Shown one piece after another: positions 17,598-60,110 of a DNA stretch of 64,000 nt. The stretch is from contig JAIORK010000036.1 of the NCBI GenBank assembly GCA_021108215.1, forward strand, positions 22,948 through 86,947, in the 5' to 3' direction. Source of the DNA: a bacterium. Lineage in GTDB: Bacteria > Oederibacteriota > JAAXVQ01 > JAUVAV01. The translations under genes were made by a program, and so were the position numbers. Position 1 is the first letter of the stretch. Each line of letters opens with the position of its first letter. Below the pieces are notes generated by a model. That model did not search any database and was not told where the DNA came from. It saw nothing but the letters and a program-made list of their open reading frames with translations.

Positions 17598-18320
17598 CTA
17601 ATAGCACTCATAGTACGGTGGCTTTTTGGGTGTTGGATATATTTTAGCCGAATAGTGTATGTTTTTTATCTTGTCACGAAATTTGTTTTGCAAAATAATA
17701 TTATTTCTAATTGCTGAAATATACTTATCCAGCGCTATTACTAAATCAACCTTTAAGGCATTAATTGATATCGGCAACCAATATCCAGCATAGTTATTCA
17801 AATGCGTTATTTCTCCGGCAGAATGAACTTGCACTATTTGGAAGTGTTTAACATCAAGCCTTTTTTCAAATATTATTTTGCCATCATTATCTGCTATTTG
17901 GAAATTGTGGCTGTAACTATTTCGTTCACCGTCTTCATCAGAAAATACCAACCACTTTAATATCGCTTTTTTACTTTCGAGATCTATTAATAGATTTTGT
18001 GGATGAAATCTATGACACAATCCATGTCGATACATGTAATAAAACCATTTAACTTCCTGGTCTTTGTAAATACTTGTGTCAAAATAATTACGAATAAATC
18101 CTAACTCAACATCCTCACCATCTTTCCCGAAGGGTCTTTGACCATGAAGATATTCACTCAATTCCAGCACATAACTAAAAAACATCAATGGAATAGTAAA
18201 CTCTCCTATCCCTGCTTTTAGAAGAGCACCCATTTCTAAGAGGATCGAGTTTTTATAATCTTTATCCAAATATTCGATTATCTGGTCACTGCTAACATTT
18301 TTAAATAATTTCCAAGACAT
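17598..18320 (-). CDS. Hypothetical protein (240 aa), second gene of the uncharacterised two-gene island operon
   Basis: Intact AT-rich ORF 32 nt downstream of the 777-aa gene on the same strand; no recognisable catalytic motifs. Confidence 0.5.
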   Translation of the reverse strand: MSWKLFKNVSSDQIIEYLDKDYKNSILLEMGALLKAGIGEFTIPLMFFSYVLELSEYLHGQRPFGKDGEDVELGFIRNYFDTSIYKDQEVKWFYYMYRHGLCHRFHPQNLLIDLESKKAILKWLVFSDEDGERNSYSHNFQIADNDGKIIFEKRLDVKHFQIVQVHSAGEITHLNNYAGYWLPISINALKVDLVIALDKYISAIRNNIILQNKFRDKIKNIHYSAKIYPTPKKPPYYECY

Positions 18321-18352
18321 ACCTCATCTCCATTTTAGACCACTTATTGATT

Positions 18353-20686
18353 TTATTTAATCGGATGTTTAGAAAGAATTTGTCGTGCTAATTCTTCTCC
18401 GTCATTTGGGCCTGGAAATCCACCTCTTTCCCGTAATCGTTCTTCAAGTTGTTTTTGTCTAAGTAAAATATGTTTTTGTACATTTTTCCATTGTTCTTCT
18501 GTGAAAACCTTCGGTTTTGTTTTAATTTCTTCGTCAACCTTGTTTGCCATATGTGTATTGTTTTTTGCACGCATTACTAATTGAATAGCATAAAAATGTG
18601 CATATATATCACCAATTGCGTAATCATCAGGATTTTTAGAAATTTCGCAATATGATTCCAGGATTGAGCGTATATTTGAAATACATAAGAGTAATACATC
18701 TTGCCACCACTCTCGGGTATAAAATAAAAGGCCTATGTACACCATAGAATCACATGCAATATCAGTCCATTCTTTAAATATGCTCTTCTTTCTATCAAAA
18801 GCAACCCAGTAAAATGACAAAATCCACGTGAATTTATCAACTAATTCTTTCACATCATTTTGGTTAGATCGTAGTGGATTATCTAATATCTGACACACAA
18901 CTTTAGCAATATGCTTAATTAGCTCATTAATCTCCCAAATAAGAAAACTATCTCCAAACTCATTTTTTTCTGCAACATTGCGCAAGTGCCGTGCAATGAT
19001 GTCTGTCATGTCTATTAATTCGTAATATGGATTTGTCGCATCTCGTTCAGGATCTACTTTCGGAAATATAGTTGCAGCCATAGCGAATAAATTCCCGAGT
19101 GAAGTTTGTTCGACAAGACTATATGCCTTTGTAAACGGATGATTCATTGATAGTCTTCCTTGAAGAGTTTCACTAATTATTGCAAAGGGCGCTAAATTTC
19201 CAAGTTTTTGAAAAACTTGGCCAAGTACTTCTTTGAAGTAATAATCTTTATTCCGAAGCATATGGTCAAGGATGATAAAATACTGTTTAATAACTTCTTC
19301 TGCTAATACAGGATTGCGGTTAATATAGAAGTACTGAGCAATTTCTGATATTCCATTTATAACTGGCAAGTGAATGTCTGAGTCATCAACATCCTTCGGA
19401 GTACATTTAATAATTCCAGAAAGCATGCCGCTCGTCTGAAACGGCACCTCATCAAGCCCTTTTGTTTGGGCAATCCTCACGCATGACAACATGTAGTTAA
19501 TTGGTTTCATAGACAATGGTGCAGTGTTCGGCCGGTATTTTCTTGCTCCTAAATTTGCTGTGTGGATAGTAATTTTCTTGTATGCTTCAGAAACACTTAA
19601 AGCTGCGGATTCATCATTTTGTGATATAGCAATACGGCTAATTTCATTTAACATTTCATAGGAACAGCCTGTAACTGCTTCTACATCAGATTGGGAAGTT
19701 AACAGCAATGTATCTGGGCAGGGCAAAATTAGTAAATTTAGCTTTCTTGCAGATAAATAATACATAGTCAAATGAGCAATCGCATACACAGCCGATTTCG
19801 TTAATAGTTTCTCATTTCGAGAAATAGCTTTTACTGCGATCTCAGATAAATCATTAATCCAACTATTGATAGTTTGGGGATAGCCGAACACTTGAGGATA
19901 ATAAATCGTTTCTATATCCTCAATTACCACTCCCTGCTTTTTTTCTTCCGGGAGTAATTTATAATGAAGTCTTGCTGATCGATTAACTGTCTTTTTTATA
20001 CGATCAATTGTTCTCATTGCTTGCTTGAGAGCAAGATTTGTTGAATAAGTTGGATCTAACAGCTTGCATATATGACGATGATACAAGCGTAGCAGATCAA
20101 GACTAAATCCCAGAGTTAATATAGCAACAGCTAATTTCAAGTTTTCTGAAACTCCAGCGAATCCACCCGCAGAAAAAGCAAAGCACGCTATACACAATAT
20201 CGCAAGAGCTACAAACGATGCATTTGTAATTAAGTCTCTCCGATAAAGACGGACAATTGAAGATGACCAAGCTTCTGCTGCACGTTGTATTGGTATAATT
20301 GATAGGGTTAATACAAGTGCCAGAATTGTTCCGTACGTGGCACCAAGTTGAATGAGCATTTTATCTATTGATTGCGTTGTGTTTAATGCTGTTCGCAAAG
20401 GCGGATAACCCAGAATAAATGATGCTATTATAAGGCCAATAATACCTATCATAATCTTGCTTGTTTTCAAAAGCAACCCACGACTAAACGAAGTAATATA
20501 AAACCATAAACGAACAACTTTTATTGTCAAATACGTTTTTATTCGCGTTATTATAGTTTTCAATCCATCACGTAGCGACATAATCATTCGTTTGAAATAT
20601 TTCACTAGTTTTGGCCACCATAGTATTACGTTTGTTGACCATAAATTGCGAATTTTAAAGTATGATTTGTTTTTATTTTGGTTCAT
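18353..20686 (-). CDS. Hypothetical large polytopic membrane protein (777 aa; N-terminal ~4-5 TM helices plus ~550-aa alpha-helical soluble domain)
   Basis: Hydrophobic segments (IGIIGLIIASFILGY, YGTILALVLTLSIIPI, FVALAILCIACFAFSAGGF, LAVAILTLGFSL) followed by a long helical domain. No P-loop, nuclease or protease motifs recognised. AT-rich codon usage distinct from the backbone. Confidence 0.55.
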   Translation of the reverse strand: MNQNKNKSYFKIRNLWSTNVILWWPKLVKYFKRMIMSLRDGLKTIITRIKTYLTIKVVRLWFYITSFSRGLLLKTSKIMIGIIGLIIASFILGYPPLRTALNTTQSIDKMLIQLGATYGTILALVLTLSIIPIQRAAEAWSSSIVRLYRRDLITNASFVALAILCIACFAFSAGGFAGVSENLKLAVAILTLGFSLDLLRLYHRHICKLLDPTYSTNLALKQAMRTIDRIKKTVNRSARLHYKLLPEEKKQGVVIEDIETIYYPQVFGYPQTINSWINDLSEIAVKAISRNEKLLTKSAVYAIAHLTMYYLSARKLNLLILPCPDTLLLTSQSDVEAVTGCSYEMLNEISRIAISQNDESAALSVSEAYKKITIHTANLGARKYRPNTAPLSMKPINYMLSCVRIAQTKGLDEVPFQTSGMLSGIIKCTPKDVDDSDIHLPVINGISEIAQYFYINRNPVLAEEVIKQYFIILDHMLRNKDYYFKEVLGQVFQKLGNLAPFAIISETLQGRLSMNHPFTKAYSLVEQTSLGNLFAMAATIFPKVDPERDATNPYYELIDMTDIIARHLRNVAEKNEFGDSFLIWEINELIKHIAKVVCQILDNPLRSNQNDVKELVDKFTWILSFYWVAFDRKKSIFKEWTDIACDSMVYIGLLFYTREWWQDVLLLCISNIRSILESYCEISKNPDDYAIGDIYAHFYAIQLVMRAKNNTHMANKVDEEIKTKPKVFTEEQWKNVQKHILLRQKQLEERLRERGGFPGPNDGEELARQILSKHPIK

Positions 20687-20788
20687 ATAATCCTCTGAAT
20701 CTATTTTCCTGTCAGCGAAATATAGGGCATTATCGTCAACTTTTAGCGGAATAGCAATTCAAAATATATTACACCGTAAATAGCACCG

Positions 20789-20983
20789 TTATTTTATACA
20801 TGACTGTTTCTTTATGGCTTTTACTACCAAATCACTGATTTCTTGCATTATCTCTGGATCGTATTGGATAAAATCAAGTCTACCGCTGCTTTTATCTTGG
20901 TTTTCTTTTACTACTTCTCGATCCATACGTTCAGTTATGATTTGGAAGACCTTTATATCACCCCGTGCCGCTTGTTTGATCAT
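20789..20983 (-). CDS. Small hypothetical protein (64 aa from ATG; open frame continues ~45 codons upstream without an ATG)
   Basis: In-frame upstream region (back to a TGA at ~21120) encodes a GNPCGAKCGVSHW Cys-rich motif but has no canonical start; possibly a degraded gene or a non-AUG start. Confidence 0.25.
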   Translation of the reverse strand: MIKQAARGDIKVFQIITERMDREVVKENQDKSSGRLDFIQYDPEIMQEISDLVVKAIKKQSCIK

Positions 20984-21119
20984 GGCGCCTGCAACCTTTT
21001 CCTGGCTGATACTGCCAGTCTCAAACTGTTCCTTGATAACAACATTCCAGTGACTGACTCCACACTTGGCACCGCAGGGATTTCCGCTTTGTCCCTTTCT
21101 TCTAATTAATTCTTTATAA

Positions 21120-21147
21120 ACAAAAAAGAGCCTCCCTTTCGGGAGGC
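21120..21147 (-). terminator. Terminator hairpin after the XRE regulator gene
   Basis: AAGAGCCTCCC-TTTC-GGGAGGCTCTT perfect stem followed on the minus strand by TTTTTTG. Confidence 0.5.
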
Positions 21148-21149
21148 TC

Positions 21150-21359
21150 TTAAAGATTCATTAGGTCCTTTAATTTAATCCCCAGCCCATGAGCTATCTT
21201 AGCTAGAGTGGTGAATTGCGGGTCCACAAGACCTTTTTCGATCTTACTTAGGTTGCCTTTGGACATGCCGTTTTCATAAGCTAGGTGTTCCAGGGTAATC
21301 CCCTTCTCCTTCCTTAGCTTATGTATCCTCATGCCCAGTTTTTCGGTTAATTGGCTCAT
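21150..21359 (-). CDS. XRE-family helix-turn-helix transcriptional regulator (Cro/CI-like)
   Basis: 69 aa with HTH (ITLEHLAYENGMSKGNLSKIEKG). Confidence 0.7.
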   Translation of the reverse strand: MSQLTEKLGMRIHKLRKEKGITLEHLAYENGMSKGNLSKIEKGLVDPQFTTLAKIAHGLGIKLKDLMNL

Positions 21360-21647
21360 AATGGAGTTGATTTTACAATATTTTAGGTTTATAGTAGTTT
21401 CTTATAAGAAACTTTTGGAGGTTAAATATGCAAATCTTAAAATCTACAATTCCTTATGTCATTGAATTTTCACCGGATGACATCAATTATTTACATTTGG
21501 CCTGTCATTATTATAAAGATTTACTGAAAAATAATAAGGACATGAAAAAAATCAAACGACGGGATAGACTTAAGCATCTAAACCAAATGATAACGCTCAT
21601 TGATTTGATGATGTGAGGATTATCAAAAAAATATTTTTATATTTGTT

Positions 21648-22214
21648 CTATTTACTCTGCATTGCTAATAGCTCCGCCTTTTTTCCCTCCATCGGGGCTG
21701 AAATATGTATTCGTGATTTTTCTTTTTTACGCTTCTGGCCTCCCTGGTTTAATTTCGAGAGGTTTTCAGATATAAATCTATCAATATTCTCTTTAGCTTC
21801 CACATGAAAGCGAGCCACTCCGTTTTTAATATCCACATCTTTACCAGCCATGTGTATCAATTGATCAAGATACATTTTTACTTTAAATGCATGATATTTA
21901 ATCAAATCAACAATTTTTACCGAAGGCTGGCGAAAACCAATTTCCAAGTGAAGCCCAAGGACGCTTGCATAATTCAATAGATCACCAACAGCGATATCTT
22001 TGTCATAAGAGGATTCGATTTTGGATATTTTCCCCTGGGAACAACCAACTTTTTTCGCCAGTTTGGTCTGCGTGAGTTGGTGTTTGCAACGCAACATGAG
22101 CAGGAATTTGGAAATCATCCGGTTTTCGATTTCATACGCTACGCTTTTCTTGAATTCCTCATCCGTTGAAAGCCCTTCCATCATTTTCATAACATTTTCA
22201 TATTTTTTCGCCAT
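21648..22214 (-). CDS. HigA-like antitoxin / XRE-family HTH protein
   Basis: HTH (LTQTKLAKKVGCSQGKISKIES) in a 188-aa protein; start overlaps the stop of the upstream toxin-like gene (toxin-first HigBA arrangement). Confidence 0.6.
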   Translation of the reverse strand: MAKKYENVMKMMEGLSTDEEFKKSVAYEIENRMISKFLLMLRCKHQLTQTKLAKKVGCSQGKISKIESSYDKDIAVGDLLNYASVLGLHLEIGFRQPSVKIVDLIKYHAFKVKMYLDQLIHMAGKDVDIKNGVARFHVEAKENIDRFISENLSKLNQGGQKRKKEKSRIHISAPMEGKKAELLAMQSK

Positions 22215-22585
22215 TATTGTCCCCCCTGTTTCATACCCTTTACCTTTTTCTTGTATTCCTCAATATCCCTACTCTGGGACCTCTTATCCCCTATTCCTAA
22301 AAGCACAACCCTCTTTTCCTTTACGTCGGAATAGATATAAAGCCGTGTTTCCTGGAGCTTCTTTCTTATTCCTCCACATCTTTGGTCAATCGCTTTGATG
22401 CCCATGGGTTCCGGATAGACAAACCCCACCTGGACCAACGAAGGCGACCCACACTCACACAAAGTCCTAAAATACGTGTCCAGGTTGTTCAAAACGCACT
22501 TTAATTCATCTTTGTGCTTTTTTTGATAGTGCTTGTGGTCCCTCTCGAAGGATTGCGTCGGTTGGAGATGCCATGGTTCCATCAT
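22214..22585 (-). CDS. RelE/HigB-like type II toxin (addiction-module killer family)
   Basis: C-terminal RLYIYSDVKEKRVVLLGIGDKRSQSRDIE resembles the HigB/RelE-like killer signature (...Y..vvLL.ggdKs.Q..DI); 123 aa, coupled to the downstream XRE antitoxin. Confidence 0.5.
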   Translation of the reverse strand: MMEPWHLQPTQSFERDHKHYQKKHKDELKCVLNNLDTYFRTLCECGSPSLVQVGFVYPEPMGIKAIDQRCGGIRKKLQETRLYIYSDVKEKRVVLLGIGDKRSQSRDIEEYKKKVKGMKQGGQ

Positions 22586-47725: not shown

Positions 47726-48004
47726 TTATCCTTCAACCTTATGGGTCAGGACAACAATCTTGATCGCGCTTTTCCGTTCCCCGTCCAATTCGAGATGCAT
47801 GAATTCCGGACGAAAGGTCAATTCAATTTTATCATCCGTAAGGTAAGACCGGGAAATGGTAATCGCTTTTACTGCCTGATTCACACTTTGAGGACCCATC
47901 GCAACAACTTCAATATCCTTGCCTTCGCGGATATTATTAGCAATCGCACCAGCTACAGTGGCAGGGTTGCTTTTCCCGGCAACTTTGAGAGTGAGCATTG
48001 GCAT
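47726..48004 (-). CDS. spoVS: SpoVS family protein
   Basis: 92 aa MPMLTLKVAGKSNPATVAGAIANNIREGKDIEVVAMGPQSVNQAVKAITISR closely matches the SpoVS family. Confidence 0.75.
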   Translation of the reverse strand: MPMLTLKVAGKSNPATVAGAIANNIREGKDIEVVAMGPQSVNQAVKAITISRSYLTDDKIELTFRPEFMHLELDGERKSAIKIVVLTHKVEG

Positions 48005-48194
48005 AGTCGTAAGTCTCCTTTTGCGACGTTATTGAACCGGGACCTAACCGGCGCAACCCTAAATAGGGGCTGATTATTATTTTTAAAGTATAGCATATTC
48101 ATGCCTGTATTTCAATTTGACTTCTTTTATTGACGCTGGACTTTTCTGCCCGGAAAACCGGTGCCTGGCACCAAATCCCCGAAGCTTTTATGAA

Positions 48195-48740
48195 TTACTT
48201 TTCTATTTGTACTATATATGGTGGGTCAAGTTTTAAGAGTGCATATGTTTTACGAAGAGTTTTTTCTCCTCCAGATCGAATCAGATATTCACCTCGCGTC
48301 GGGATTGTGTCCTTTCTCCAAGATCCATTTTTATAAAGCCATTCCACCTTGATTCCTTTCAGTTCTTGCAAAACAGGATGTATCACCTCAACAACTTTAA
48401 ACGCTGTTGCCCGTTTTTTTTTGCCAAAAGGGTGAGGGATTTCTACTGTTGATGGGATTGATTGCCATTCCTGATCATCAACACTCTTGTATTGAGTTGC
48501 CTTTGCTTGGACACCTCCGGGATCTTTTGCTTCCGGACTATCTGAACAGAAAGCATAGATGGGTTGGGGTTGTGGATTCGCATTAATGTAGTTAATCCAC
48601 TGTCTAATAAATTCTTCTTTTCTATCTTGAAACGACCATAGCGTCCATTCGTTTGCTTCAATTTCCTTTTCTTTACGCCGAAGAATGTCCTCACGGGTTT
48701 CTCCAGCGTGAACTCCTAAACAGTGCCAAAATCCTAGCAT
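48195..48740 (-). CDS. Hypothetical protein (181 aa), third gene of a TA-like operon
   Basis: Start overlaps the upstream toxin gene by 7 nt; AT-rich; no recognisable motifs. Confidence 0.4.
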   Translation of the reverse strand: MLGFWHCLGVHAGETREDILRRKEKEIEANEWTLWSFQDRKEEFIRQWINYINANPQPQPIYAFCSDSPEAKDPGGVQAKATQYKSVDDQEWQSIPSTVEIPHPFGKKKRATAFKVVEVIHPVLQELKGIKVEWLYKNGSWRKDTIPTRGEYLIRSGGEKTLRKTYALLKLDPPYIVQIEK

Positions 48741-49099
48741 ATTTTCCCAATCCTCCCCCGATCCTCTTTCTCCTTATCCCCTTTAAAATAAATTTCTATC
48801 AACGCCACTTTATTTTCCGCCGCATAATACGCATAGATCACCCTGATCCCGGAATTCGCGCCCCTGCCTTTCAGAGCCTTGCAGGCGAATTTGCGGGCTT
48901 TGTAGATTTTCGGATTTTCAATGCCTAAATCAGGAATGGATACGATGCCCTGGTTATCCTTATCCAGCTTATGATAGAGCTGAAGCTGAACTTTGATAAA
49001 TACATCCAAATCATCTTCCGGGGTTTTGAATCGTTTCCTCAGCTTTTTTAAATCCTTCTCAAATTCCGGCCAGCGTCTGACCTCACTGAATATTTTCAT
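48734..49099 (-). CDS. RelE/ParE-superfamily toxin (phage Gp49-like / HigB-like)
   Basis: C-terminal GANSGIRVIYAYYAAENKVALIEIYFKGDKEKEDRG pattern (G.yRviY......i.ll..f.K...k) typical of Gp49/RelE-type toxins; overlaps the upstream antitoxin stop by 17 nt. Confidence 0.55.
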   Translation of the reverse strand: MKIFSEVRRWPEFEKDLKKLRKRFKTPEDDLDVFIKVQLQLYHKLDKDNQGIVSIPDLGIENPKIYKARKFACKALKGRGANSGIRVIYAYYAAENKVALIEIYFKGDKEKEDRGRIGKIC

Positions 49100-49901
49100 C
49101 GCTTCGTCTCACTGAATAGGGTGCTGTCCGGTAAAACACGGATTCATATTCAATATTTTTACCCTCCTCGGAGGTCATCCAGGGAACATCAGCATGTGAA
49201 TAATCTTCCATTTGCCTGGCATTCTTATCCGACAGCCGGGCCAAAACATCGTCAATTACTTCCTTTTCATTCGCTGAAAGAACACTTAAATCCGGTTCCT
49301 TTAGCGGCAAATATTTTGTTTGCGGATAGTCAAAGTATTGGCTTTTCACTTTCTCGATTTCATTATTCTTGATCATGTTATCCACAATCACTTTAAATTC
49401 CCGCGGTGTAGGGCCGTGATGATTCTTAATATACGTGGCCCCGATAAGCTGTTCCTCAAACCTTTCATAATAATCGAAGTCCATAAAATACAGGAGTTTA
49501 TAGATAACGCTTTCCCCGATATTGGGTTTTGATCCCACTTTGCCCAGTATATACAATAAAATCTGCTTGAATTTTTTCAGATTCTTCTGCGGCACGTTTA
49601 TGCGAATACCGGGTTTGGTCTCTTTTTCTTCTTTAGTCATTTCCAAAATCACCTGCGGCTCTTTGGAAATATCCATAAGGCTCTCCACCGAGACCCCGAA
49701 TATTTGGGAAATTTTCTTCAACTCTTTTATTGAGACAGCTCTGGTGCCGTTTTCCATTTGAGAAATCGTGGGACGCACCACTTTCAGTAAGTTCGCCAAT
49801 GCCTGCTGACTCATTTCCTGAGATTCCCTCAACAATTTGACATGTTTGCCTATTTTTTTATCAAATTCGCCCACGGTGAACACCCCCTTTTCTATACTCA
49901 C
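49083..49901 (-). CDS. Antitoxin-like protein: N-terminal XRE HTH fused to Panacea (DUF4065/SocA-like) domain
   Basis: HTH (MSQQALANLLKVVRPTISQMENG) then IYKLLYFMDFDYYERFEEQLIGATYIKNHHGPTP, matching the Panacea-domain core (KLLYF.D......G.p......A...GPv). Confidence 0.55.
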   Translation of the reverse strand: MSIEKGVFTVGEFDKKIGKHVKLLRESQEMSQQALANLLKVVRPTISQMENGTRAVSIKELKKISQIFGVSVESLMDISKEPQVILEMTKEEKETKPGIRINVPQKNLKKFKQILLYILGKVGSKPNIGESVIYKLLYFMDFDYYERFEEQLIGATYIKNHHGPTPREFKVIVDNMIKNNEIEKVKSQYFDYPQTKYLPLKEPDLSVLSANEKEVIDDVLARLSDKNARQMEDYSHADVPWMTSEEGKNIEYESVFYRTAPYSVRRSDENIQ

Positions 49902-50184
49902 TCTACGTCATGTAATTATTCCTGTCAACGCAAAGTTAGCATTTATTACTTTTGTCCCTGGGCTATTTATTAGAGGATGGCTTCATCTTGGTCATGCTAT
50001 CTGGTCAATCCTGAAAAAGTCAAAAATAAAAAAAAGTGGCTGGCACCACTTTCATTTTCTTCAAGACCCTCGGCATACTACTTTTTCACAGTGCATCCTG
50101 TTTGAGCTTCCCGAAGGGGGCGAGTTATGCACCAGAAAAAGTAGTATGCCGAGGGTCTCCTAAAAAAGAACCGACACCTTGGCT

Positions 50185-51066
50185 CTATTTCTTATGAATC
50201 GCATGGGCCAGTGCATAGACTTCCGGCCGGGGAAGGTTTTTCTGCCGGGCGACACGCGCAATGGCCTGGTTCAGGGTCAATCCGTCTGCCTGCAAACGAT
50301 CCAATTGTTCCTGAATGGATTCTGAGACCACGGACTCCTCAGGATCATGATTGCCGTCAATCACCAAAGTATATTCACCCCGGGTGATTTGGGCTGCATT
50401 TTCAATCAGTTGCGAAATCGTGCCGCTGATATAGTCTTCATGGATCTTCGTCATCTCGCGGCATAACACCGCCGGCCGGTCTCCCAAAATATCAAGAATA
50501 TCCTTTAAAATTTTGTCTAATTTATGCGGCGAGAGAAAAAAAACCAGAGTTTCACTGCGCTGCCTGAGGGTCTCCAAAAAACGGCATCGCGGTCCGGTCT
50601 TGGCATCTAAAAATCCAAAAAATGAGAAGCAATCATTTGGAAACCCGGCACCTACCAGCGCAGTTAACACTGCGGACGGACCGGGTAAAATCTCGGTCCG
50701 CACACCATGTTCGCGGGCCGTCTGTACCAAATAAGCGCCCGGATCGGAGATCCCCGGCATGCCCGCATCGGAAACCAGCGCGATGGTTTTACCTGAACGC
50801 AGGCGGGCAAGAATTTCCGGCGCTTTTCTCTTTTCGGTTTCCTTATAATAACTCGTCAGCGGGGTATGAATATCATAGTAGGATAAAAGCTTGCGGGTAT
50901 GGCGGGTATCCTCGGCAAGTATCAGATCCGCCTCTTTGAGCAGGCGCAAACCGCGCAACGTCATGTCTTCCAGATTACCAATCGGGGTACCGATGAGATA
51001 GAGTGTTCCCGCGCGTTCATCCTGACCGGACGGATGAAACAATTGCGAATTCGGCGTTTTTGCCAT
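50185..51066 (-). CDS. rsmI: 16S rRNA (cytidine1402-2'-O)-methyltransferase
   Basis: Tetrapyrrole-methylase fold N-terminus GTLYLIGTPIGNLEDMTLRGLRLLKEADLILAEDTR; 293 aa. Confidence 0.88.
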   Translation of the reverse strand: MAKTPNSQLFHPSGQDERAGTLYLIGTPIGNLEDMTLRGLRLLKEADLILAEDTRHTRKLLSYYDIHTPLTSYYKETEKRKAPEILARLRSGKTIALVSDAGMPGISDPGAYLVQTAREHGVRTEILPGPSAVLTALVGAGFPNDCFSFFGFLDAKTGPRCRFLETLRQRSETLVFFLSPHKLDKILKDILDILGDRPAVLCREMTKIHEDYISGTISQLIENAAQITRGEYTLVIDGNHDPEESVVSESIQEQLDRLQADGLTLNQAIARVARQKNLPRPEVYALAHAIHKK

Positions 51067-54852: not shown

Positions 54853-55176
54853 TTAGTCTACCAACATTTCATTGATCACCGCTTTAATTTGCAGACGGGT
54901 TTTGGCACTTAGCTTTCCAATCTTTTTAACCAATCGGCGTTTGTCAACGGTCCGGATTTGATCAAGAACAACCCATCCTTTTTTATTCTGAAATGTCAGA
55001 CCAACTCTGGTGGGATATTTCTTTGATTGTGTGGTCATTGGCGCAATAATAACAGTTGAAATATACCGATTCATTTCATCAGGAGAAATGACAACACAGG
55101 GTCTGGTTTTCTTGATCTCATGACCCATTGCAGGATCCAGACAAATAAGATAAATATCATATTGAGTGATCACCAC
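54853..55176 (-). CDS. mazF: MazF/PemK family endoribonuclease toxin
   Basis: 107 aa; GDIYLICLDPAMGHEIKKTRPCVVISPDEMN matches the PemK/MazF core (GDI..v.fdP..G.E..K.RPalVvS). Confidence 0.75.
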   Translation of the reverse strand: MVITQYDIYLICLDPAMGHEIKKTRPCVVISPDEMNRYISTVIIAPMTTQSKKYPTRVGLTFQNKKGWVVLDQIRTVDKRRLVKKIGKLSAKTRLQIKAVINEMLVD

Positions 55177-55418
55177 TTCCAGTCACCTTTATCCAGATCA
55201 AGATAATCATCAATAAGCAGGGTATCTTGTTTATTATTGTTCATTGCCAAAAACTTTGCATCCCAGTCTTTCCGAATATCTTTTTTGACTGGTTTTAAAA
55301 CGATACGGTCACTGGTTATTTCGGCATCAACTTGCTCGCCGATATGACATTGCCGCAAAATAGCTTTTGGCAATCGAACACCTCTGGAATTTCCAATTTG
55401 TATAATATCAATCCGCAT
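55170..55418 (-). CDS. mazE: MazE/AbrB-type antitoxin (SpoVT/AbrB swapped-hairpin domain)
   Basis: IQIGNSRGVRLPKAIL motif. Start reassigned to the ATG after GGGAGGTG (the listed ORF has a 41-aa extension); overlaps the mazF start. Confidence 0.65.
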   Translation of the reverse strand: MRIDIIQIGNSRGVRLPKAILRQCHIGEQVDAEITSDRIVLKPVKKDIRKDWDAKFLAMNNNKQDTLLIDDYLDLDKGDWKW

Positions 55419-55548
55419 TGTATTCACCTCCCTTACTTCAAATGTAATTATATTGTAATTACATTTGTTTGTCAAGCATTCATGCCTATCATCGCTATAG
55501 CGCCGGCACGAAGGACGAAAATGCAAGTCGGCTATATGCATATCTGTC

Positions 55549-58500
55549 TCACCGACTGTATTTTTGCAAAATATTGCGAAACTCCATAAATCCTTTGCTT
55601 AATAAATAATTACAAAACTCTTCTGCTCTCTTTTTACTCGCTTGATGATTCTTACTGAAAACACTCTCGAGTATCGCCATAATCTCATCCTGATGAAACG
55701 CAATGAAATTTATTTCATTTTCCGCTAAAGCTACTAATATTTTAACAACTTCAGTTGGATAAGTTTCAACCATTGTTTTAAGTTGTTCCATAATTGGTGG
55801 AATTGCTTCGATATGCTTGGTTTTTTCCAGCACAAATAATAATTGATCAATCGCCCACTGCGAGTCACACTTCCCGGATCCAAACCAATGCCCAAACGCC
55901 GACATTTCATTCAAAAAGATTTCCGGACTCGTTGATAAAAAAAGCATTTTGCATCGCTTTTCCCACATTTTTTTTATGCGCTGCATTTCCATAGCTGATA
56001 AATTTTCCGTGCTCCCTAATATATCAAAACCGATCATTTGCATTGCTGTCCCTCTTAATTCATCCGGCGCTCTTTTCCAAAAATTTATAAAAATATCCGA
56101 TTCTAATTCCAGTTTTCCGCGAATATAAAACAACATCAGATGCCAAGCCAATCGCTTATCTTTTTCTTCCGCAACATCCTCAATTTCGTTGACTGCCCGA
56201 GCATACTCTGTTTTCAATATTTCAAAAACATTATCATAGGGCTGACACAACAAAATATATGCCTTCCAGGCCACAGCCCAATATTCACGTTCCCTCTCAT
56301 CTTCCGGGAATATCCGGGTCCGTGCTTTGGCTGACCATTCCGGTTTTACTTTTGCCAGCCAAGGAAACCAACGCCCGTATACCGAATGAATAGCCAAGCT
56401 GGAATCTTGCGTATGATCAAGATGTTTATCCAAAATCTTTTCAATTTCAGGCATCATTTCTTCTCTTTTATCCTCTTCAAAATCATCTGTTTGACTCTGG
56501 ATTTTATTTCTGTAAATCCACCACATATAATTCATAACTGCATGCATGGCTTTTCCGCGGGTAGAATTGATTGAACGGGAATATGGTTCCATGTCATGTG
56601 TGTTTTCATATTCACTTGTCGGATCCGAATCTTCGGTTAATGGCTCTAAAACAGTCCAAACGCTTTTCCGTAGCTTTAAGGGGATTAAATTTTTACGCAT
56701 ACCTTCAACCAGGCAGTCTGCTATCTCCCCCCTGGCTTGGCCCCTATCGTCCGCATTTTCCTCTTTTATTTCGCGTGACTGTCGCATCCACTGACCAAGT
56801 TCCAGCATAGACGCCCACTCCAGCTTTGTATTGGTATTACGGATCACTTCTTTAAATCCAAATAATATCCAAAATAAATAATTTGAAGTATATGGACTGG
56901 TAAGCCGGGTAAATTGCCGTGCCTCGACAGAATACAATTCAGGCCTGGCTTGCACCAAAGACGACAGCATTTGCGCCAATCCTTCCGCAGAAACGTCTCT
57001 GACTTCTGCTGATGGTTTCCAAGCGTTTAAAAATTCAACCAGCTTCTCAATTGGCAAGGCGGCTAACTCGTCCAGGGTTTTTGGGCTGGATTCCCATCCC
57101 CCCTCCACTACAACTCCGGTGTTTCTCTTTTTCTCCGCTACACCATATTCTTGAACTAATTTCGTATAATAAGGCTGCCATGCCGCTGGCAAAGCTTGGC
57201 CAAACCTGGCCAGACAATCCCTTTGCCAGTGCCGGCGAACTTGCTCAGCCTCATCTTTCCCGGGTTTTCTGTACCTCTTGTCAAAATCCGGCCCGTCTTC
57301 AACCCATTTTAAGATCATCGCCTGTTTATCCTGCGGTAAAAATCCAAAACCCTTTTCCAGCAGCGGTCCATATTCATCCCAGCATTCACCACTTGCAAAT
57401 AACGCCTTGTCTGATAAATATTTATCTGTCAGTTCCGGCGCTGACCCGGGACAAAGGCTTAATAAATGAAGCGCTATCCGCTTGAAAAGCATCCATGGTT
57501 TCTCGCTTGAAATTTTTACCAAAACATCAATACCTATAGTCGCATCCAATTGCGTGCCTGTCTTTAATATCAAATCGATTAGAATATTTCTAAGCTCGTA
57601 CATCTCATATTGCATTGGTTTTTCAATCTCCGGGCGCCAAAAAAAAGAATAATCATTATTATTTTCCGGTTCCTCATCCTTGGCTTGTGAATATCTCAAT
57701 GCCATATCCAACATCTCGCATAGCCATCGGAACACAGGAACACCGGTTGACTTTGCAAGTTCCGGAATAATCTTCTCCGTTATCTCTTTATACCGGGAAA
57801 TTTCTACTCTTGTTTTCGGATGCGGGCCATCCCAATAGCGCTCTGCGTTTTCTTTGCTCTTCTGCCAGCGAGGATCCGGGAGTATTACCAGCATTTTTTT
57901 CGCCAGCCCGAAAGCTTCCTCCGCTTTTCCTGCCAAAGTATAATACAGGACCAGTTCAGCCAAATGCTTGTCAAGCGGATAAAACAAATATTCATTTACC
58001 ATCCACTTGGCTGCTTTATCTATTAAACTCATAGCTATATCAATCGGCAGATTCAGCGTTGCTTTAACCAAACCATCAATAACATAGACATTTTGTGTGT
58101 CAGGGATGATTAAAATAATATCCGCAACTGCTTGGGGCGCTATTTTGGCCATCCGCACTAAATAACCGGATTCCGCCCAAAATGGAAACGTTATGGAACC
58201 ATCTTCATTTTGTAGCAGCTCCGGGGGACTTCGAAAAACTGATGTATCTTTTAGCCGTGCAAGCCATTTTGGATTAGAGCATCTTTCAAAAAAGTATTTG
58301 CGTATAAAATAGACATCAGGAATTTCTTTGTAGAGTTTTTCCGCATCCTTAGAAGTCGGATTATCTTTTTCCAGTAATTTATCCAGTTCGGCAATCAATC
58401 CCGAGCTATGATTGCGCAACGCATGTAAAATCCGCTTCAAATAAACATCCATGTCCGACAAGTTTTTTTCCAGATCACTTGGAGTCATTCGCGGAGCATC

Positions 58501-59391
58501 CAATCTATCTCGGTGCGCTATTTTTTGCAGGGTTCCAGGCTTTACAAACCACTGCAATTCATCTTCTTCTCTCTCTCCTGTTAATTCTTTTAACAACCTC
58601 TCTATTTCTTTTTTATGCGCATCATGTTCACCTTGTTTTTTTTCTATATCCAGATAAAGTCTCAACACATCCCTGATACTGCTTTCAATTTCTCTAAGCA
58701 AATGCCCCAGCAAATGCGAGCGAGTCTTTAATTCCCCTCCATTTCGTCTTATCCAGCAAATATCCCAATAAAACGCTTCTGCTCCAGGCCCGGCCAGTTC
58801 TTTTAAGTCCTCATAGACTTGTCTTTGGATGCCATCTAATTGAAAATTTTGCTGCGGTCCTAGGGGCATCTCTGCTGCTTTTTTGTCCACCTGCTCAGGC
58901 AATTTTCCCAGCTCTAATATCTTTTCCAATTTCGCAAGCGTCGCAATTGTGATATTTTTTTTCCCTTTTTCAAGAGCGGAAATATCCGGCTGCTTTAAAC
59001 CTGTGCGGCGGGCCAAATCTGCTTGTGTCCAACCCTTCTGTTCTCTGGCCTGTTTTATTTTTCTTCCAATTACCTGATTCTCTTCAGCCGGCGCACCTTT
59101 AATCCGCTTGTTTTTACCTTTTTTTTGTTCAAGCAGTTCATAAACACGCTCCCACTTGGCATAATAATCCGGCGCCTCACTGGTGCGCTTCCATTCCCGC
59201 CGGATTTTCGGCCACACTTCAGTAAATTGCTCTTTTGTGATGAAGGTAAAAATGTCTTTGGGGCGATCATTGCGTGTTAAAACACGGATAATTTTTTTCG
59301 GAAAATCAGGATGTTCAGGAATCTTAAGGATTCGCTCCGTTTCCTTCAAGGCATCTTCCGGCAAATCCCAAAAATAATCTCCGATCTTCAT
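55549..59391 (-). CDS. Giant (1280-aa) helical protein with embedded XRE-family HTH, translationally coupled to an AbiEii-like nucleotidyltransferase
   Basis: HTH at ~aa 105-165 (IGRKIKQAREQKGWTQADLARRTGLKQPDISALEKGKKNITIATLAKL). Remainder is alpha-helical/repeat-like with no Walker or nuclease motifs seen. Stop overlaps the downstream start (ATGA). Confidence 0.5.
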   Translation of the reverse strand: MKIGDYFWDLPEDALKETERILKIPEHPDFPKKIIRVLTRNDRPKDIFTFITKEQFTEVWPKIRREWKRTSEAPDYYAKWERVYELLEQKKGKNKRIKGAPAEENQVIGRKIKQAREQKGWTQADLARRTGLKQPDISALEKGKKNITIATLAKLEKILELGKLPEQVDKKAAEMPLGPQQNFQLDGIQRQVYEDLKELAGPGAEAFYWDICWIRRNGGELKTRSHLLGHLLREIESSIRDVLRLYLDIEKKQGEHDAHKKEIERLLKELTGEREEDELQWFVKPGTLQKIAHRDRLDAPRMTPSDLEKNLSDMDVYLKRILHALRNHSSGLIAELDKLLEKDNPTSKDAEKLYKEIPDVYFIRKYFFERCSNPKWLARLKDTSVFRSPPELLQNEDGSITFPFWAESGYLVRMAKIAPQAVADIILIIPDTQNVYVIDGLVKATLNLPIDIAMSLIDKAAKWMVNEYLFYPLDKHLAELVLYYTLAGKAEEAFGLAKKMLVILPDPRWQKSKENAERYWDGPHPKTRVEISRYKEITEKIIPELAKSTGVPVFRWLCEMLDMALRYSQAKDEEPENNNDYSFFWRPEIEKPMQYEMYELRNILIDLILKTGTQLDATIGIDVLVKISSEKPWMLFKRIALHLLSLCPGSAPELTDKYLSDKALFASGECWDEYGPLLEKGFGFLPQDKQAMILKWVEDGPDFDKRYRKPGKDEAEQVRRHWQRDCLARFGQALPAAWQPYYTKLVQEYGVAEKKRNTGVVVEGGWESSPKTLDELAALPIEKLVEFLNAWKPSAEVRDVSAEGLAQMLSSLVQARPELYSVEARQFTRLTSPYTSNYLFWILFGFKEVIRNTNTKLEWASMLELGQWMRQSREIKEENADDRGQARGEIADCLVEGMRKNLIPLKLRKSVWTVLEPLTEDSDPTSEYENTHDMEPYSRSINSTRGKAMHAVMNYMWWIYRNKIQSQTDDFEEDKREEMMPEIEKILDKHLDHTQDSSLAIHSVYGRWFPWLAKVKPEWSAKARTRIFPEDEREREYWAVAWKAYILLCQPYDNVFEILKTEYARAVNEIEDVAEEKDKRLAWHLMLFYIRGKLELESDIFINFWKRAPDELRGTAMQMIGFDILGSTENLSAMEMQRIKKMWEKRCKMLFLSTSPEIFLNEMSAFGHWFGSGKCDSQWAIDQLLFVLEKTKHIEAIPPIMEQLKTMVETYPTEVVKILVALAENEINFIAFHQDEIMAILESVFSKNHQASKKRAEEFCNYLLSKGFMEFRNILQKYSR

Positions 59392-60110
59392 GAGAGTTCA
59401 CCCTCCAAAAACGCGCTCAATTCATCATCTAAATGACGGATAATCATTTTTGATTTGAGTTTGCGGTCATAAATGGCATCAGCATAATCCAAATAATCTT
59501 GCTCAAACTTTTGGGTTGAAAATCTCTTGCGCCACCCTATCATCGTTCGCTGATAGGTGCGTGGAATCGTTTTTAAAAATGAATGTAATGGCTCGATCTT
59601 TTTGGACAAATAATAGAGATCAATAACATCACGCGGGACATTTCGACCAACAGCTTGCGGTTCTCCATGTCCATTCTTCTCAGGTACAATTCCGGTAATC
59701 GCGATTATTTTTTGAAAATAAATCCGATTGACATCATACACCGGTATACCCTTAATTTTCTTAATAAAATTTTCCCTGGTTAGCTGCGGAAGGACATCTT
59801 CTACGAAATCAAGTTTCAATGATTCGGAAGTTTTCTCTATAGGGATGGTATAAAAATGAACATTCATTTTCCCGGGATGAGTAATTTCATCCTTGAATTC
59901 CGGTTTGTATCCACCTTTTTTTATTTCTTCAAGAATCGAAACAATTTCCCCATAATTAAACTCAAGTGAAAAGAAATCCAGATCGCGTGAAAAACGATGT
60001 TGAAGATAAAAAATCTCCAATGCCGTCCCGCCGGCCAAAGCAAAATTCCCGGGATTTTTGGAAAATAAGTTCAAAATTTCCAGATGTAATTTTCGCAGTC
60101 TTTTATTCAC
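59388..60110 (-). CDS. Nucleotidyltransferase, AbiEii/AbiGii toxin family (DUF1814-like)
   Basis: NTase-fold motifs FALAGGTALEIFYLQHRFSRDLDFFS (hG[GS] ... [DE]xD pattern typical of AbiEii); 240 aa. Confidence 0.65.
   Translation of the reverse strand: MNKRLRKLHLEILNLFSKNPGNFALAGGTALEIFYLQHRFSRDLDFFSLEFNYGEIVSILEEIKKGGYKPEFKDEITHPGKMNVHFYTIPIEKTSESLKLDFVEDVLPQLTRENFIKKIKGIPVYDVNRIYFQKIIAITGIVPEKNGHGEPQAVGRNVPRDVIDLYYLSKKIEPLHSFLKTIPRTYQRTMIGWRKRFSTQKFEQDYLDYADAIYDRKLKSKMIIRHLDDELSAFLEGELS

What the first reader, a model, noticed from the sequence alone, without database searches (positions are those of the whole stretch)
48195..49901. Three-gene TA-like operon: XRE+Panacea antitoxin, Gp49/RelE-type toxin, and an extra 181-aa unknown gene
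All three ORFs overlap (17-nt and 7-nt overlaps), implying co-translation.

- The first gene fuses an XRE HTH to a Panacea (DUF4065) domain, a domain described as a promiscuous antitoxin module.
- The second is a RelE/Gp49-like toxin.
- The third protein has no recognisable family, yet is tightly coupled to the pair.

A tripartite arrangement could be a TA pair with an additional effector or sensor.
Basis: partly seen in the sequence, partly recalled or inferred. Interest (0 to 1): 0.6.

Follow-up and report, generated by a model that had tools for sequence, protein, structure and literature searches.

The report
Panacea toxin-antitoxin pair plus unrelated passenger gene
The first two genes are an ordinary, widespread two-gene toxin-antitoxin module of a kind already catalogued (an HTH-Panacea antitoxin with a RelE/HigB-like toxin). 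The third gene is a rare orphan that sits next to this pair only in this one organism, so it is not a conserved third component.

Summary
The three minus-strand ORFs and their 17-nt and 7-nt overlaps are real. Gene 1 (49874..49083, 263 aa; the 272-aa GTG start lies inside the -10 box) is HTH_3 plus SocA_Panacea by Pfam. Gene 2 (121 aa) matches no Pfam, NCBIfam or PADLOC model, including Gp49 and ParE/RelE, but its AlphaFold model matches only RelE/HigB2/YoeB/YafQ/ParE toxins.

Gene 2 belongs to a family of more than 3,300 clusters. In 79 of 80 species genomes its homolog is directly preceded by an HTH-Panacea gene, usually overlapping by 14-20 nt. This fits the untested PanAT group T14 of Kurata et al. 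2022.

Gene 3 (181 aa) belongs to a rare unannotated family of about 320 clusters. None of the 80 gene-2 loci carries it. None of 92 gene-3 loci carries gene 1 or 2, and two further contexts show no Panacea or TA-type Pfam family. Its neighbours vary, its GC3 (0.30) differs from the pair (0.48-0.53), and the junction trims both genes.

The trio occurs only in this organism, between rsmI and spoVS. The tripartite reading is not supported. Gene 3's confident model has no significant structural match; the weak hits are PUA-like (YTH/EVE/ASCH) domains.

The parts
49900..49928 (-). Sigma-70-like promoter of the operon (TTGACA-17 nt-TAGAGT)
   Evidence: 10 of 12 matches. The -35 box and spacer are conserved upstream of the two closest homologous pairs, L011 and L012. 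GTAAT/ATTAC half-sites bracket the -35 box in the window and in L012; I read them as a possible operator (inference, untested).
49083..49874 (-). Gene 1: HTH-PanA antitoxin, 263 aa (XRE HTH at residues 13-64, Panacea/DUF4065 at residues 125-232). The ORF is open up to the GTG at 49901, but that codon lies inside the -10 box.
   Evidence: Pfam. NCBI MCD4813669.1 'DUF4065 domain-containing protein', 263 aa. SD AAGGGGG lies before the GTG at 49874. The start aligns with the ATG of L011. All 70 full-length partners of gene-2 homologs carry HTH_3 plus SocA_Panacea.
48734..49099 (-). Gene 2: RelE/ParE-fold (HigB-2-like) toxin, 121 aa, overlapping gene 1 by 17 nt
   Evidence: AF2 model pLDDT 88. The top ~50 Foldseek PDB hits are RelE, HigB2, YoeB, YafQ and ParE-type toxins or RelE-domain proteins. 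The family profile matches HigB-2 at E=0.015. There are 3,310 homolog clusters. No Pfam, NCBIfam or PADLOC model matches.
48195..48740 (-). Gene 3: 181-aa member of a rare unannotated family. It overlaps gene 2 by 7 nt (ATGCTAG) and has its own SD (GGGAGGA). It is probably a passenger gene co-transcribed with the pair.
48150..48178 (-). Weak hairpin (GGTGCCAGGCACC followed by GGTTTT) downstream of gene 3, possibly the end of the transcript. The spoVS promoter follows at 48115..48087.
   Evidence: Read directly from the sequence. It is not reported by the terminator scan, so this is weak. It shares TGGTGCCAG[C/G]CAC with the rsmI terminator at 50048..50029 (repeat D5).

Best explanation
The locus is a canonical two-gene type II toxin-antitoxin module of the PanAT class, followed by an unrelated accessory gene that became fused to its 3' end in this lineage.

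Gene 1 is an HTH-PanA. Its XRE helix-turn-helix most likely binds the operon's own promoter and represses it (inferred). Its Panacea domain, or the linker, binds and neutralises the toxin (inferred from published PanAT work). Gene 2 has a RelE/ParE fold and is closest to HigB-2. It most likely arrests growth by ribosome-dependent mRNA cleavage when the antitoxin is lost or triggered (inferred from the fold and from conserved Lys/Arg/Tyr/His residues).

The pair is a mobile unit found in many bacterial phyla and some archaea, always as two genes.

Gene 3 is intact and conserved. It is transcribed from the TA promoter and can be translated by reinitiation or from its own SD. It has a different evolutionary history and no conserved link to any TA module, so it is a passenger and not a third subunit. 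My best guess for it is a standalone, very divergent PUA-like (YTH/EVE/ASCH-type) nucleic-acid-binding or small hydrolytic protein. That guess is low confidence.
For: Shown:
- ORFs and overlaps.
- HTH_3 plus SocA_Panacea in gene 1 and in 70 of 70 full-length partners.
- RelE/ParE fold for gene 2 and a HigB-2 profile match.
- In 79 of 80 species genomes the gene-2 homolog is directly preceded by a gene-1 homolog (about 260 aa where complete), mostly with a 14-20 nt overlap. The 80th locus is cut by the contig end.
- 0 of 80 of these loci carry gene 3.
- 0 of 92 gene-3 loci carry gene 1 or gene 2. The same holds, by precomputed Pfam only, for the closest (54% identical) and the most widely seen homologs.
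- Gene 3's 78 non-redundant flanking proteins share no Pfam family more than twice.
- GC3 is 0.30 for gene 3, against 0.53 and 0.48 for the pair and 0.45-0.54 for host genes.
- Junction scar. Gene 2's tail is in the shortest class (5 residues; 3 of 64 relatives) and has Cys where 57 of 64 relatives have Tyr. That TGC codon supplies gene 3's ATG. Gene 3 lacks the N-terminal tail and the conserved Phe seen in every homolog N-terminus listed and in 14 of 15 aligned sequences.
- The trio occurs only at this one site in this one organism.

Literature:
- 343 PanAs have an N-terminal HTH (PMC8832971).
- PanT group T14 has HHpred 99.7% to HigB-2, antitoxin-then-toxin order, HTH-PanA partners and gaps of -17, -11 and -8 nt.
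Against: - The 7-nt overlap and the lack of a strong separate promoter mean gene 3 is almost certainly co-expressed with the pair, which would fit a functional link.
- Gene 3 is intact (40 of 43 consensus positions), so the junction has been kept under selection.
- PanAT loci are known to sometimes have lineage-restricted accessory third genes (PMC8832971).
- Toxicity, neutralisation and autoregulation are all untested, both for this family and for T14 (marked 'notest' in Dataset S1).
- Sequence identity of gene 2 to T14 members could not be checked.
- The catalytic-residue mapping onto RelE is anchored at only one position (R86 to R61).
Confidence: 0.75

Rival explanations
1. This is a true tripartite system. 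Gene 3 is an accessory sensor or effector recruited to the PanAT pair in this lineage, for example a PUA-like reader of modified nucleic acid that modulates toxin activation.
For: - Tight 7-nt overlap and shared promoter.
- Gene 3 is intact.
- About 8 of 78 proteins flanking gene-3 homologs are R-M or defence proteins.
- Accessory third genes are described for some PanATs.
Against: - No co-occurrence anywhere else: 0 of 80 and 0 of 92 loci.
- The trio is restricted to one organism and one site.
- GC3 is discordant.
- Many gene-3 homologs sit alone between housekeeping genes.
Confidence: 0.08
2. The three genes form one small mobile islet that inserted as a unit between rsmI and spoVS. The TA pair acts as an addiction module that stabilises its cargo, gene 3.
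For: - The whole 1.9-kb block, including both intergenic regions, has lower GC (0.41-0.43) than the flanks (0.46-0.51).
- A shared motif, TGGTGCCAG[C/G]CAC followed by a T-run, flanks the block at 50048..50029 and 48173..48154.
- The flanking genes are housekeeping.
Against: - GC3 of gene 3 (0.30) differs sharply from the pair (0.48-0.53), so they did not co-evolve for long.
- No second occurrence of the trio exists, and no empty site was found for comparison.
- The flanking repeat is short and of a kind that often arises by chance (caveat).
Confidence: 0.25
3. Gene 2 is a ParE-type gyrase poison, or has some other activity on the same fold, and is not a RelE/HigB-type mRNA endonuclease.
For: - RelE and ParE share one fold, and ParE-type entries (PfiT 9w3a, ParE 5ceg/6x0a) are among the hits.
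- The catalytic mapping onto RelE is weak.
- PanT groups with a ParE_toxin domain exist (T59).
Against: - The best hits are the ribonucleases RelE, HigB2, YoeB and YafQ.
- The only sequence-level match is HigB-2.
- The family keeps invariant K67, K70, R86, Y89, K106, K109, R116 and H43, plus a near-invariant C-terminal Tyr. This pattern is typical of RelE-type active sites (from my knowledge of the RelE literature).
Confidence: 0.15
4. The toxin copy in this organism is attenuated. The junction with gene 3 shortened its tail and replaced the near-invariant C-terminal Tyr with Cys, so the module may be partly decayed.
For: - The tail is IGKIC, the shortest class (3 of 64). Tyr occupies that position in 57 of 64 relatives and Cys in 3 of 64.
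- The R116-x4-Y121 spacing resembles the R81...Y87 pair of E. coli RelE (from memory of RelE biochemistry; the RelE sequence was verified).
Against: - Cys at that position occurs in other, apparently intact family members.
- The Y121 to Y87 equivalence could not be established.
- All other invariant residues are present.
- The antitoxin is intact.
Confidence: 0.1

Closest known systems
PanAT toxin-antitoxin systems, specifically PanT group T14 (pT15) with HTH-PanA (Kurata et al. 2022, PNAS; PMC8832971, Dataset S1)
   Same: - The antitoxin has a Panacea/DUF4065 domain with an N-terminal HTH.
- The toxin is a small 'hypothetical protein' whose best remote match is HigB-2/RelE/YoeB.
- Gene order is antitoxin then toxin.
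- Small overlaps (-17, -11, -8 nt).
- It occurs in candidate phyla, Bacteroidetes and archaea.
   Different: - The family here was recovered almost entirely from uncultured lineages and is absent from 72,556 plasmids.
- This copy has a lineage-specific third gene fused to its 3' end.
HigB-2/HigA-2 of Vibrio cholerae and the wider RelE/ParE superfamily (RelBE, YefM-YoeB, DinJ-YafQ)
   Same: - The toxin fold matches (Foldseek probability ~1.0, target-normalised TM 0.55-0.73).
- The central 'KGxG..SG.R.IY...L..IY.K' strands align with HigB-2.
- The antitoxin has an HTH, as HigA does.
   Different: - No Pfam, NCBIfam or PADLOC model for RelE, ParE, HigB, Gp49 or YafQ is matched.
- The order is antitoxin first, whereas higBA is toxin first.
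- The antitoxin carries a Panacea domain in place of a simple HigA, RelB or Phd neutralising region.
Three-gene TA systems (paaR-paaA-parE, mazEFG, TAC chaperone modules, PanAT 'accessory' genes)
   Same: Three tightly packed, co-oriented genes with a TA pair at the core.
   Different: In those systems the third gene is conserved with the pair across species. Here it is not (0 of 80 and 0 of 92 loci).
PUA-like modified-base reader or hydrolase domains (YTH, EVE/THYN1, ASCH, McrB N-terminal domain), as the nearest shape for gene 3
   Same: - The order of secondary-structure elements is similar (b-a-b-a-b followed by a beta-rich half).
- The family has several conserved aromatic residues.
   Different: - No sequence-profile match to any PUA-like Pfam family in 65 members.
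- So this is a resemblance only, possibly a new fold variant.

Membership tests
PanA (Panacea-domain antitoxin) | Panacea/DUF4065 domain (PF13274) above the Pfam gathering score | tested here: met
   69.7 bits against a cutoff of 25.7, E=5.1e-19, residues 134-241 of the 272-aa ORF. 70 of 70 homologous partners also match.
PanA (Panacea-domain antitoxin) | Conserved two-gene architecture with a putative toxin within 100 nt in at least two species (criterion of Kurata et al. 2022) | tested here: met
   79 of 80 species genomes across many phyla, typically with a 14-20 nt overlap.
PanA (Panacea-domain antitoxin) | Neutralises the cognate toxin by direct complex formation | not testable with these tools
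   Needs co-expression rescue and pull-down. No complex prediction was available.
XRE-type HTH autoregulator | HTH_3 (PF01381) domain | tested here: met
   E=7.9e-13, 48.7 bits against a cutoff of 23. DNA binding and autorepression were not tested; only a conserved promoter with possible GTAAT/ATTAC half-sites was seen.
RelE/ParE toxin superfamily | RelE/ParE fold (a small beta-sheet packed against N-terminal helices) | tested here: met
   AF2 pLDDT 88. The top ~50 Foldseek PDB hits are RelE/ParE-fold toxins or RelE-domain proteins, best 1wmi at E=4e-4 with probability 1.0.
RelE/ParE toxin superfamily | Match to a curated sequence model (PF05016 ParE_toxin, PF05015 HigB, PF15738 YafQ, or NCBIfam RelE/ParE models) | tested here: not met
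   No such model at E<=1 for gene 2 or for 38 family members. There is only a marginal profile match to HigB-2 PDB chains, E=0.015.
RelE/ParE toxin superfamily | RelE-type catalytic residues (equivalents of Lys52, Lys54, Arg61, Arg81, Tyr87) | tested here: inconclusive
   hhalign anchors only R86 to R61 (E=0.1). The family has invariant K67, K70, R86, K106, K109 and R116 and a near-invariant C-terminal Tyr, which is Cys in this copy.
   No hit at E<=1 for gene 2 or its 37 relatives.
PanT group T14 (Kurata et al. 2022) | Sequence-cluster membership with T14 proteins (e.g. WP_119120439.1, WP_015641600.1) | not tested
   The sequences were not obtainable here. Only the descriptors match: best hit HigB-2, antitoxin-then-toxin order, HTH-PanA partner, overlap sizes.
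Tripartite or accessory-gene TA system | Third gene conserved next to the TA pair in several species | tested here: not met
   0 of 80 gene-2 loci have gene 3. 0 of 92 gene-3 loci have gene 1 or 2. Two further contexts show no Panacea or TA-type Pfam family. The trio occurs only in one organism.
PUA-like superfamily (YTH/EVE/ASCH) for gene 3 | Significant structural or profile similarity to a PUA-like domain | tested here: inconclusive
   [not shown]

The most novel reading that the evidence does not exclude
Gene 3 is a founding member of an undescribed, very divergent PUA-like (reader or hydrolase) family. In this lineage it has been wired into a PanAT module as a working third component. For example, it could sense modified or foreign nucleic acid and pass that signal to the Panacea antitoxin or the RelE-like toxin. 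That would be a natural example of a TA pair capturing a sensor.
Probability: 0.07. Interest if true: 0.6.

Novelty: new member of a known kind. Interest (0 to 1): 0.27.

Why it matters
- The pair adds a very large family to the PanAT class: more than 3,300 protein clusters and at least 554 species genomes, mostly uncultured phyla plus some archaea. It shows that this RelE/HigB-2-like toxin family still lacks a Pfam, NCBIfam or PADLOC model, so standard annotation calls it 'hypothetical'. A profile built from it would improve TA and defence annotation in candidate phyla.
- The supposed third component is a cautionary case. Overlapping stop and start codons in a single genome do not establish a functional module.
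- Gene 3 represents a small, conserved, unannotated family with a confident predicted structure and no significant structural match. It is a modest target for structural genomics.

Tried and rejected
- **Gene 2 as Gp49 or ParE by Pfam:** rejected; no hit for 38 members.
- **Gene 3 in curated libraries:** nothing in Pfam, NCBIfam, PADLOC or PHROGs, nor for 65 family members.
- **Gene 3 profiles against PDB sequences:** nothing.
- **Fusion partners of gene-3 domains** (P0141, P0144, P0148, P0161 and others): no Pfam or NCBIfam family. The 'RNAVAH' HEPN-like motif I noticed in P0141 is unsupported, and the fusion may be a gene-calling artefact.
- **Conserved neighbour of gene 3:** none among 78 non-redundant flanking proteins.
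- **Empty-site comparison:** no RsmI, SpoVS or FtsH homologs in the 80 gene-2 loci. Exact-SpoVS look-ups returned only the same organism.
- **Gene 3 and gene 2 in annotated plasmids and phages:** no plasmid hits, and one weak hit (34% identity) in an unannotated uncultured jumbo phage.
- **Mapping gene 2's C-terminal Arg/Tyr onto RelE R81/Y87:** hhalign aligned only the central strand.
- **Relation of gene 2 to the 123-aa ORF at 22214-22585:** not significant.
- **Rfam on the region:** only sub-threshold chance matches to the long hairpin.
- **Operator search:** the inverted-repeat scan at the promoter failed on a strand-format error and was replaced by the upstream alignment.
Full report
**Observation.** The window carries three co-oriented minus-strand ORFs at 49901..49083, 49099..48734 and 48740..48195. 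They overlap by 17 nt (ATGAAAATATTCAGTGA) and 7 nt (ATGCTAG).

The only good promoter is TTGACA-17-TAGAGT at 49928..49900. Its -10 hexamer covers the GTG at 49901, so gene 1 most likely starts at the GTG at 49874. Four things support this: an AAGGGGG Shine-Dalgarno sequence upstream, alignment with the ATG of the closest homolog, the NCBI protein MCD4813669.1 of 263 aa, and the gene call on L092.

The block lies between rsmI (51066..50185) and spoVS (48004..47726), with ftsH beyond. It sits in a local GC dip of 0.41-0.42 against roughly 0.46-0.51 in the flanks.

**Gene 1.** Pfam gives HTH_3 (E=7.9e-13) and SocA_Panacea/DUF4065 (E=5.1e-19; 69.7 bits against a cutoff of 25.7). PADLOC and NCBIfam recognise only the HTH part.

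**Gene 2.**
- No Pfam, NCBIfam or PADLOC model is matched. This includes PF05973 (Gp49) and PF05016 (ParE/RelE), for this protein and for 37 relatives.
- A profile of 38 family members matches V. cholerae HigB-2 chains at E=0.015 over the central strands.
- The AlphaFold model (pLDDT 88) retrieves almost only RelE/ParE-fold proteins from the PDB: archaeal RelE 1wmi (E=4e-4), HigB2, YoeB, YafQ, M. tuberculosis RelE and HigB1, PfiT and ParE. Probabilities are near 1.0 for the best hits and target-normalised TM is 0.55-0.73.
- 'RelE-like toxin' is therefore supported at fold level. 'Gp49 family' is not.
- The family keeps invariant H43, K67, K70, R86, Y89, K106, K109 and R116. hhalign against E. 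coli RelE (sequence verified) anchors only R86 to R61. The ribonuclease mechanism is inferred, not shown.

**The pair is a conserved mobile two-gene module.**
- Gene 2 has 3,310 homolog clusters.
They span FCPU426, Zixibacteria, Cloacimonadota, Planctomycetota, Omnitrophota, Aminicenantes, Desulfobacterota, Nitrospirota, Chloroflexota and some archaea.
- In 79 of the 80 best loci the gene-2 homolog is directly preceded, on the same strand, by a gene-1 homolog of about 260 aa where complete. The overlap is usually 14-20 nt. The one exception is cut by the contig end.
- All 70 full-length partners carry both HTH_3 and SocA_Panacea.
- Downstream neighbours vary.

**Relation to the literature.** Kurata et al. 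2022 (PMC8832971) describe Panacea antitoxins paired with dozens of toxin types, and 343 PanAs with an N-terminal HTH. Their Dataset S1 lists PanT groups with RelE/ParE/HigB-2-like HHpred hits: T14, T28, T58, T59 and T60. T14 fits best:
- HHpred 99.7% to HigB-2.
- Antitoxin-then-toxin order.
- HTH-PanA partners in Cryosericota, Saccharibacteria and Bacteroidetes.
- Gaps of -17, -11 and -8 nt.
- All entries marked 'notest'.

Ernits et al. 2023 (PMC10440598) show that Panacea can neutralise directly or act as a possible sensor domain. The pair is thus a known kind, predicted but not tested experimentally. I could not compare sequences with T14 directly.

**Gene 3 is not part of that module.**
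- With the single sequence it has 15 homolog clusters among 5.8 billion proteins. Profiles raise this to 329 representatives or 319 clusters. All named members are 'hypothetical protein' and none has a Pfam domain.
- None of the 80 gene-2 loci carries a gene-3 homolog.
- Among 92 loci with gene-3 homologs, none carries a gene-2 family member (profile search) or a gene-1 homolog.
- The closest homolog (54% identity) lies between ValRS/23S-IVP and a CcbP-like gene. The most widely seen homolog lies in a small accessory patch about 0.8 kb upstream of a DUF4160/DUF2442 pair.
- Its immediate neighbours are heterogeneous. Among 78 non-redundant flanking proteins, no Pfam family occurs more than twice. 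About 8 are R-M or defence proteins, including Mrr, MmeI-type IIG, methyltransferases, mad2, PDC-S02 and zeta toxin. Others are housekeeping genes with gaps of only -4 to +15 nt, such as MltG, TrpC and RsmA.
- The g1-g2-g3 order was found only on contigs of this same organism at this same site (L091-L093, L176-L177).

**Signs of a secondary junction.**
- GC3 is 0.30 for gene 3, against 0.53 (gene 2), 0.48 (gene 1) and 0.45-0.54 for flanking host genes. The pair's low overall GC comes from codon positions 1 and 2.
- Gene 2's tail after invariant R116 is IGKIC. This is the shortest class (3 of 64 relatives). It has Cys where 57 of 64 relatives have Tyr, and the TGC codon supplies the ATG of gene 3.
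- Gene 3 starts at MLGFWH. It lacks the N-terminal tail and the conserved Phe seen in every homolog N-terminus listed and in 14 of 15 aligned sequences.
- Both genes are trimmed to their conserved cores at the overlap.
- Gene 3 is nevertheless intact. It keeps 40 of the 43 positions that are at least 75% conserved in 65 family members, and it has its own GGGAGGA ribosome-binding site.

**What gene 3 might be.**
- The AlphaFold model is confident (pLDDT 90, pTM 0.86). Its topology is b-a-b-a-b followed by a beta-rich half.
- BFVD gives nothing, and AFDB libraries were unavailable.
- Conserved polar residues are H6, H11, E14, R22, K23, E26, T33, S36, C65, H103, R149 and E151, together with many conserved Trp and Phe residues. 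These would suit a ligand pocket or a metal site.
- My working guess is a very divergent, standalone PUA-like nucleic-acid-binding or small hydrolytic protein. This is low confidence.

**Mechanism proposed.**
1. Transcription starts at the sigma-70-like promoter.
2. HTH-PanA represses its own promoter (inferred). The promoter is conserved in the two closest homologs, with possible GTAAT/ATTAC half-sites.
3. PanA binds and neutralises the RelE-fold toxin (inferred from published PanAT work). The 17-nt overlap couples their translation, and this overlap is conserved across the family.
4. When the antitoxin is lost or triggered, the toxin most likely cleaves ribosome-bound mRNA and stops growth (inferred).
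5. Gene 3 rides on the same transcript.

**Verdict.** The TA-pair interpretation is supported at domain and fold level. The Gp49 call and the tripartite hypothesis are not supported. This is a new member of a known kind. Overall interest is low to moderate, with a small residual chance that gene 3 is a lineage-specific accessory component.

Noticed in passing
window 50055-50167 (minus-strand transcript, between the rsmI stop at 50185 and the rsmI terminator at 50053-50032): A near-perfect long hairpin with 33-nt arms and a 47-nt loop. The RNA fold is -77 kcal/mol, z=-8.6 against shuffles. Its arm sequence occurs nowhere else in the window, and it reaches no Rfam family's gathering score. It lies just upstream of the TA promoter. 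Its function is unknown; it could be a 3'-UTR structure, a MITE or REP-like element, or an insertion target.
   Followed up: partly
window 50029-50048 and 48154-48173: The motif TGGTGCCAG[C/G]CAC followed by a T-run (minus strand) occurs in the rsmI terminator and again just after gene 3, so it brackets the 1.9-kb three-gene block. It may be a duplicated target or island boundary, or it may be chance (repeat D5).
   Followed up: no
window 55170-60110, minus strand, GC 0.37-0.42: A second low-GC islet. It holds an AbiEii nucleotidyltransferase toxin (59388-60110, PF08843 at 1.9e-19), which overlaps a 1,280-aa protein whose only recognisable domain is an HTH_3 at residues 112-160 (55549-59391). 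A 123-aa MazE/AbrB-like protein follows (55170-55541). The huge HTH protein sits where an AbiEi antitoxin would be expected, which is unusual.
   Followed up: no
window 17598-22585, minus strand, GC 0.33-0.41: A third low-GC stretch. It holds 240-aa and 777-aa proteins with no Pfam family, and a 123-aa ORF (22214-22585) overlapping by 1 nt a 188-aa HTH_3 protein (21648-22214). This is a toxin-first arrangement like higBA. The 123-aa protein is not significantly related to gene 2.
   Followed up: partly
P0141 (673 aa), P0144 (342 aa), P0148 (394 aa), P0161 (340 aa): A few gene-3-family domains are called as parts of longer proteins, with 150-480 extra residues that match no Pfam or NCBIfam model. 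The N-terminal part of P0141 contains an 'RNAVAH' Rx4H motif reminiscent of HEPN. These may be real fusions or gene-calling read-throughs.
   Followed up: partly
L111, L113, L174, L175 (two of these loci are IMG/VR viral contigs) and L006, L117: Some gene-3 homologs sit next to an Mrr-type type IV restriction enzyme, an HNH_5 nuclease with DUF4238, or an MmeI-type IIG enzyme. This hints at defence-island residence for part of the family, but there is no consistent partner.
   Followed up: partly
L091 (852-nt ENA contig, coverage ~1.2x): This is a 97.5% identical copy of the gene 2/gene 3 junction from another sample of the same population. Its gene 3 is called as a 125-aa truncated protein (P0001). 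At this coverage the truncation is more likely a sequencing error than a real variant.
   Followed up: no
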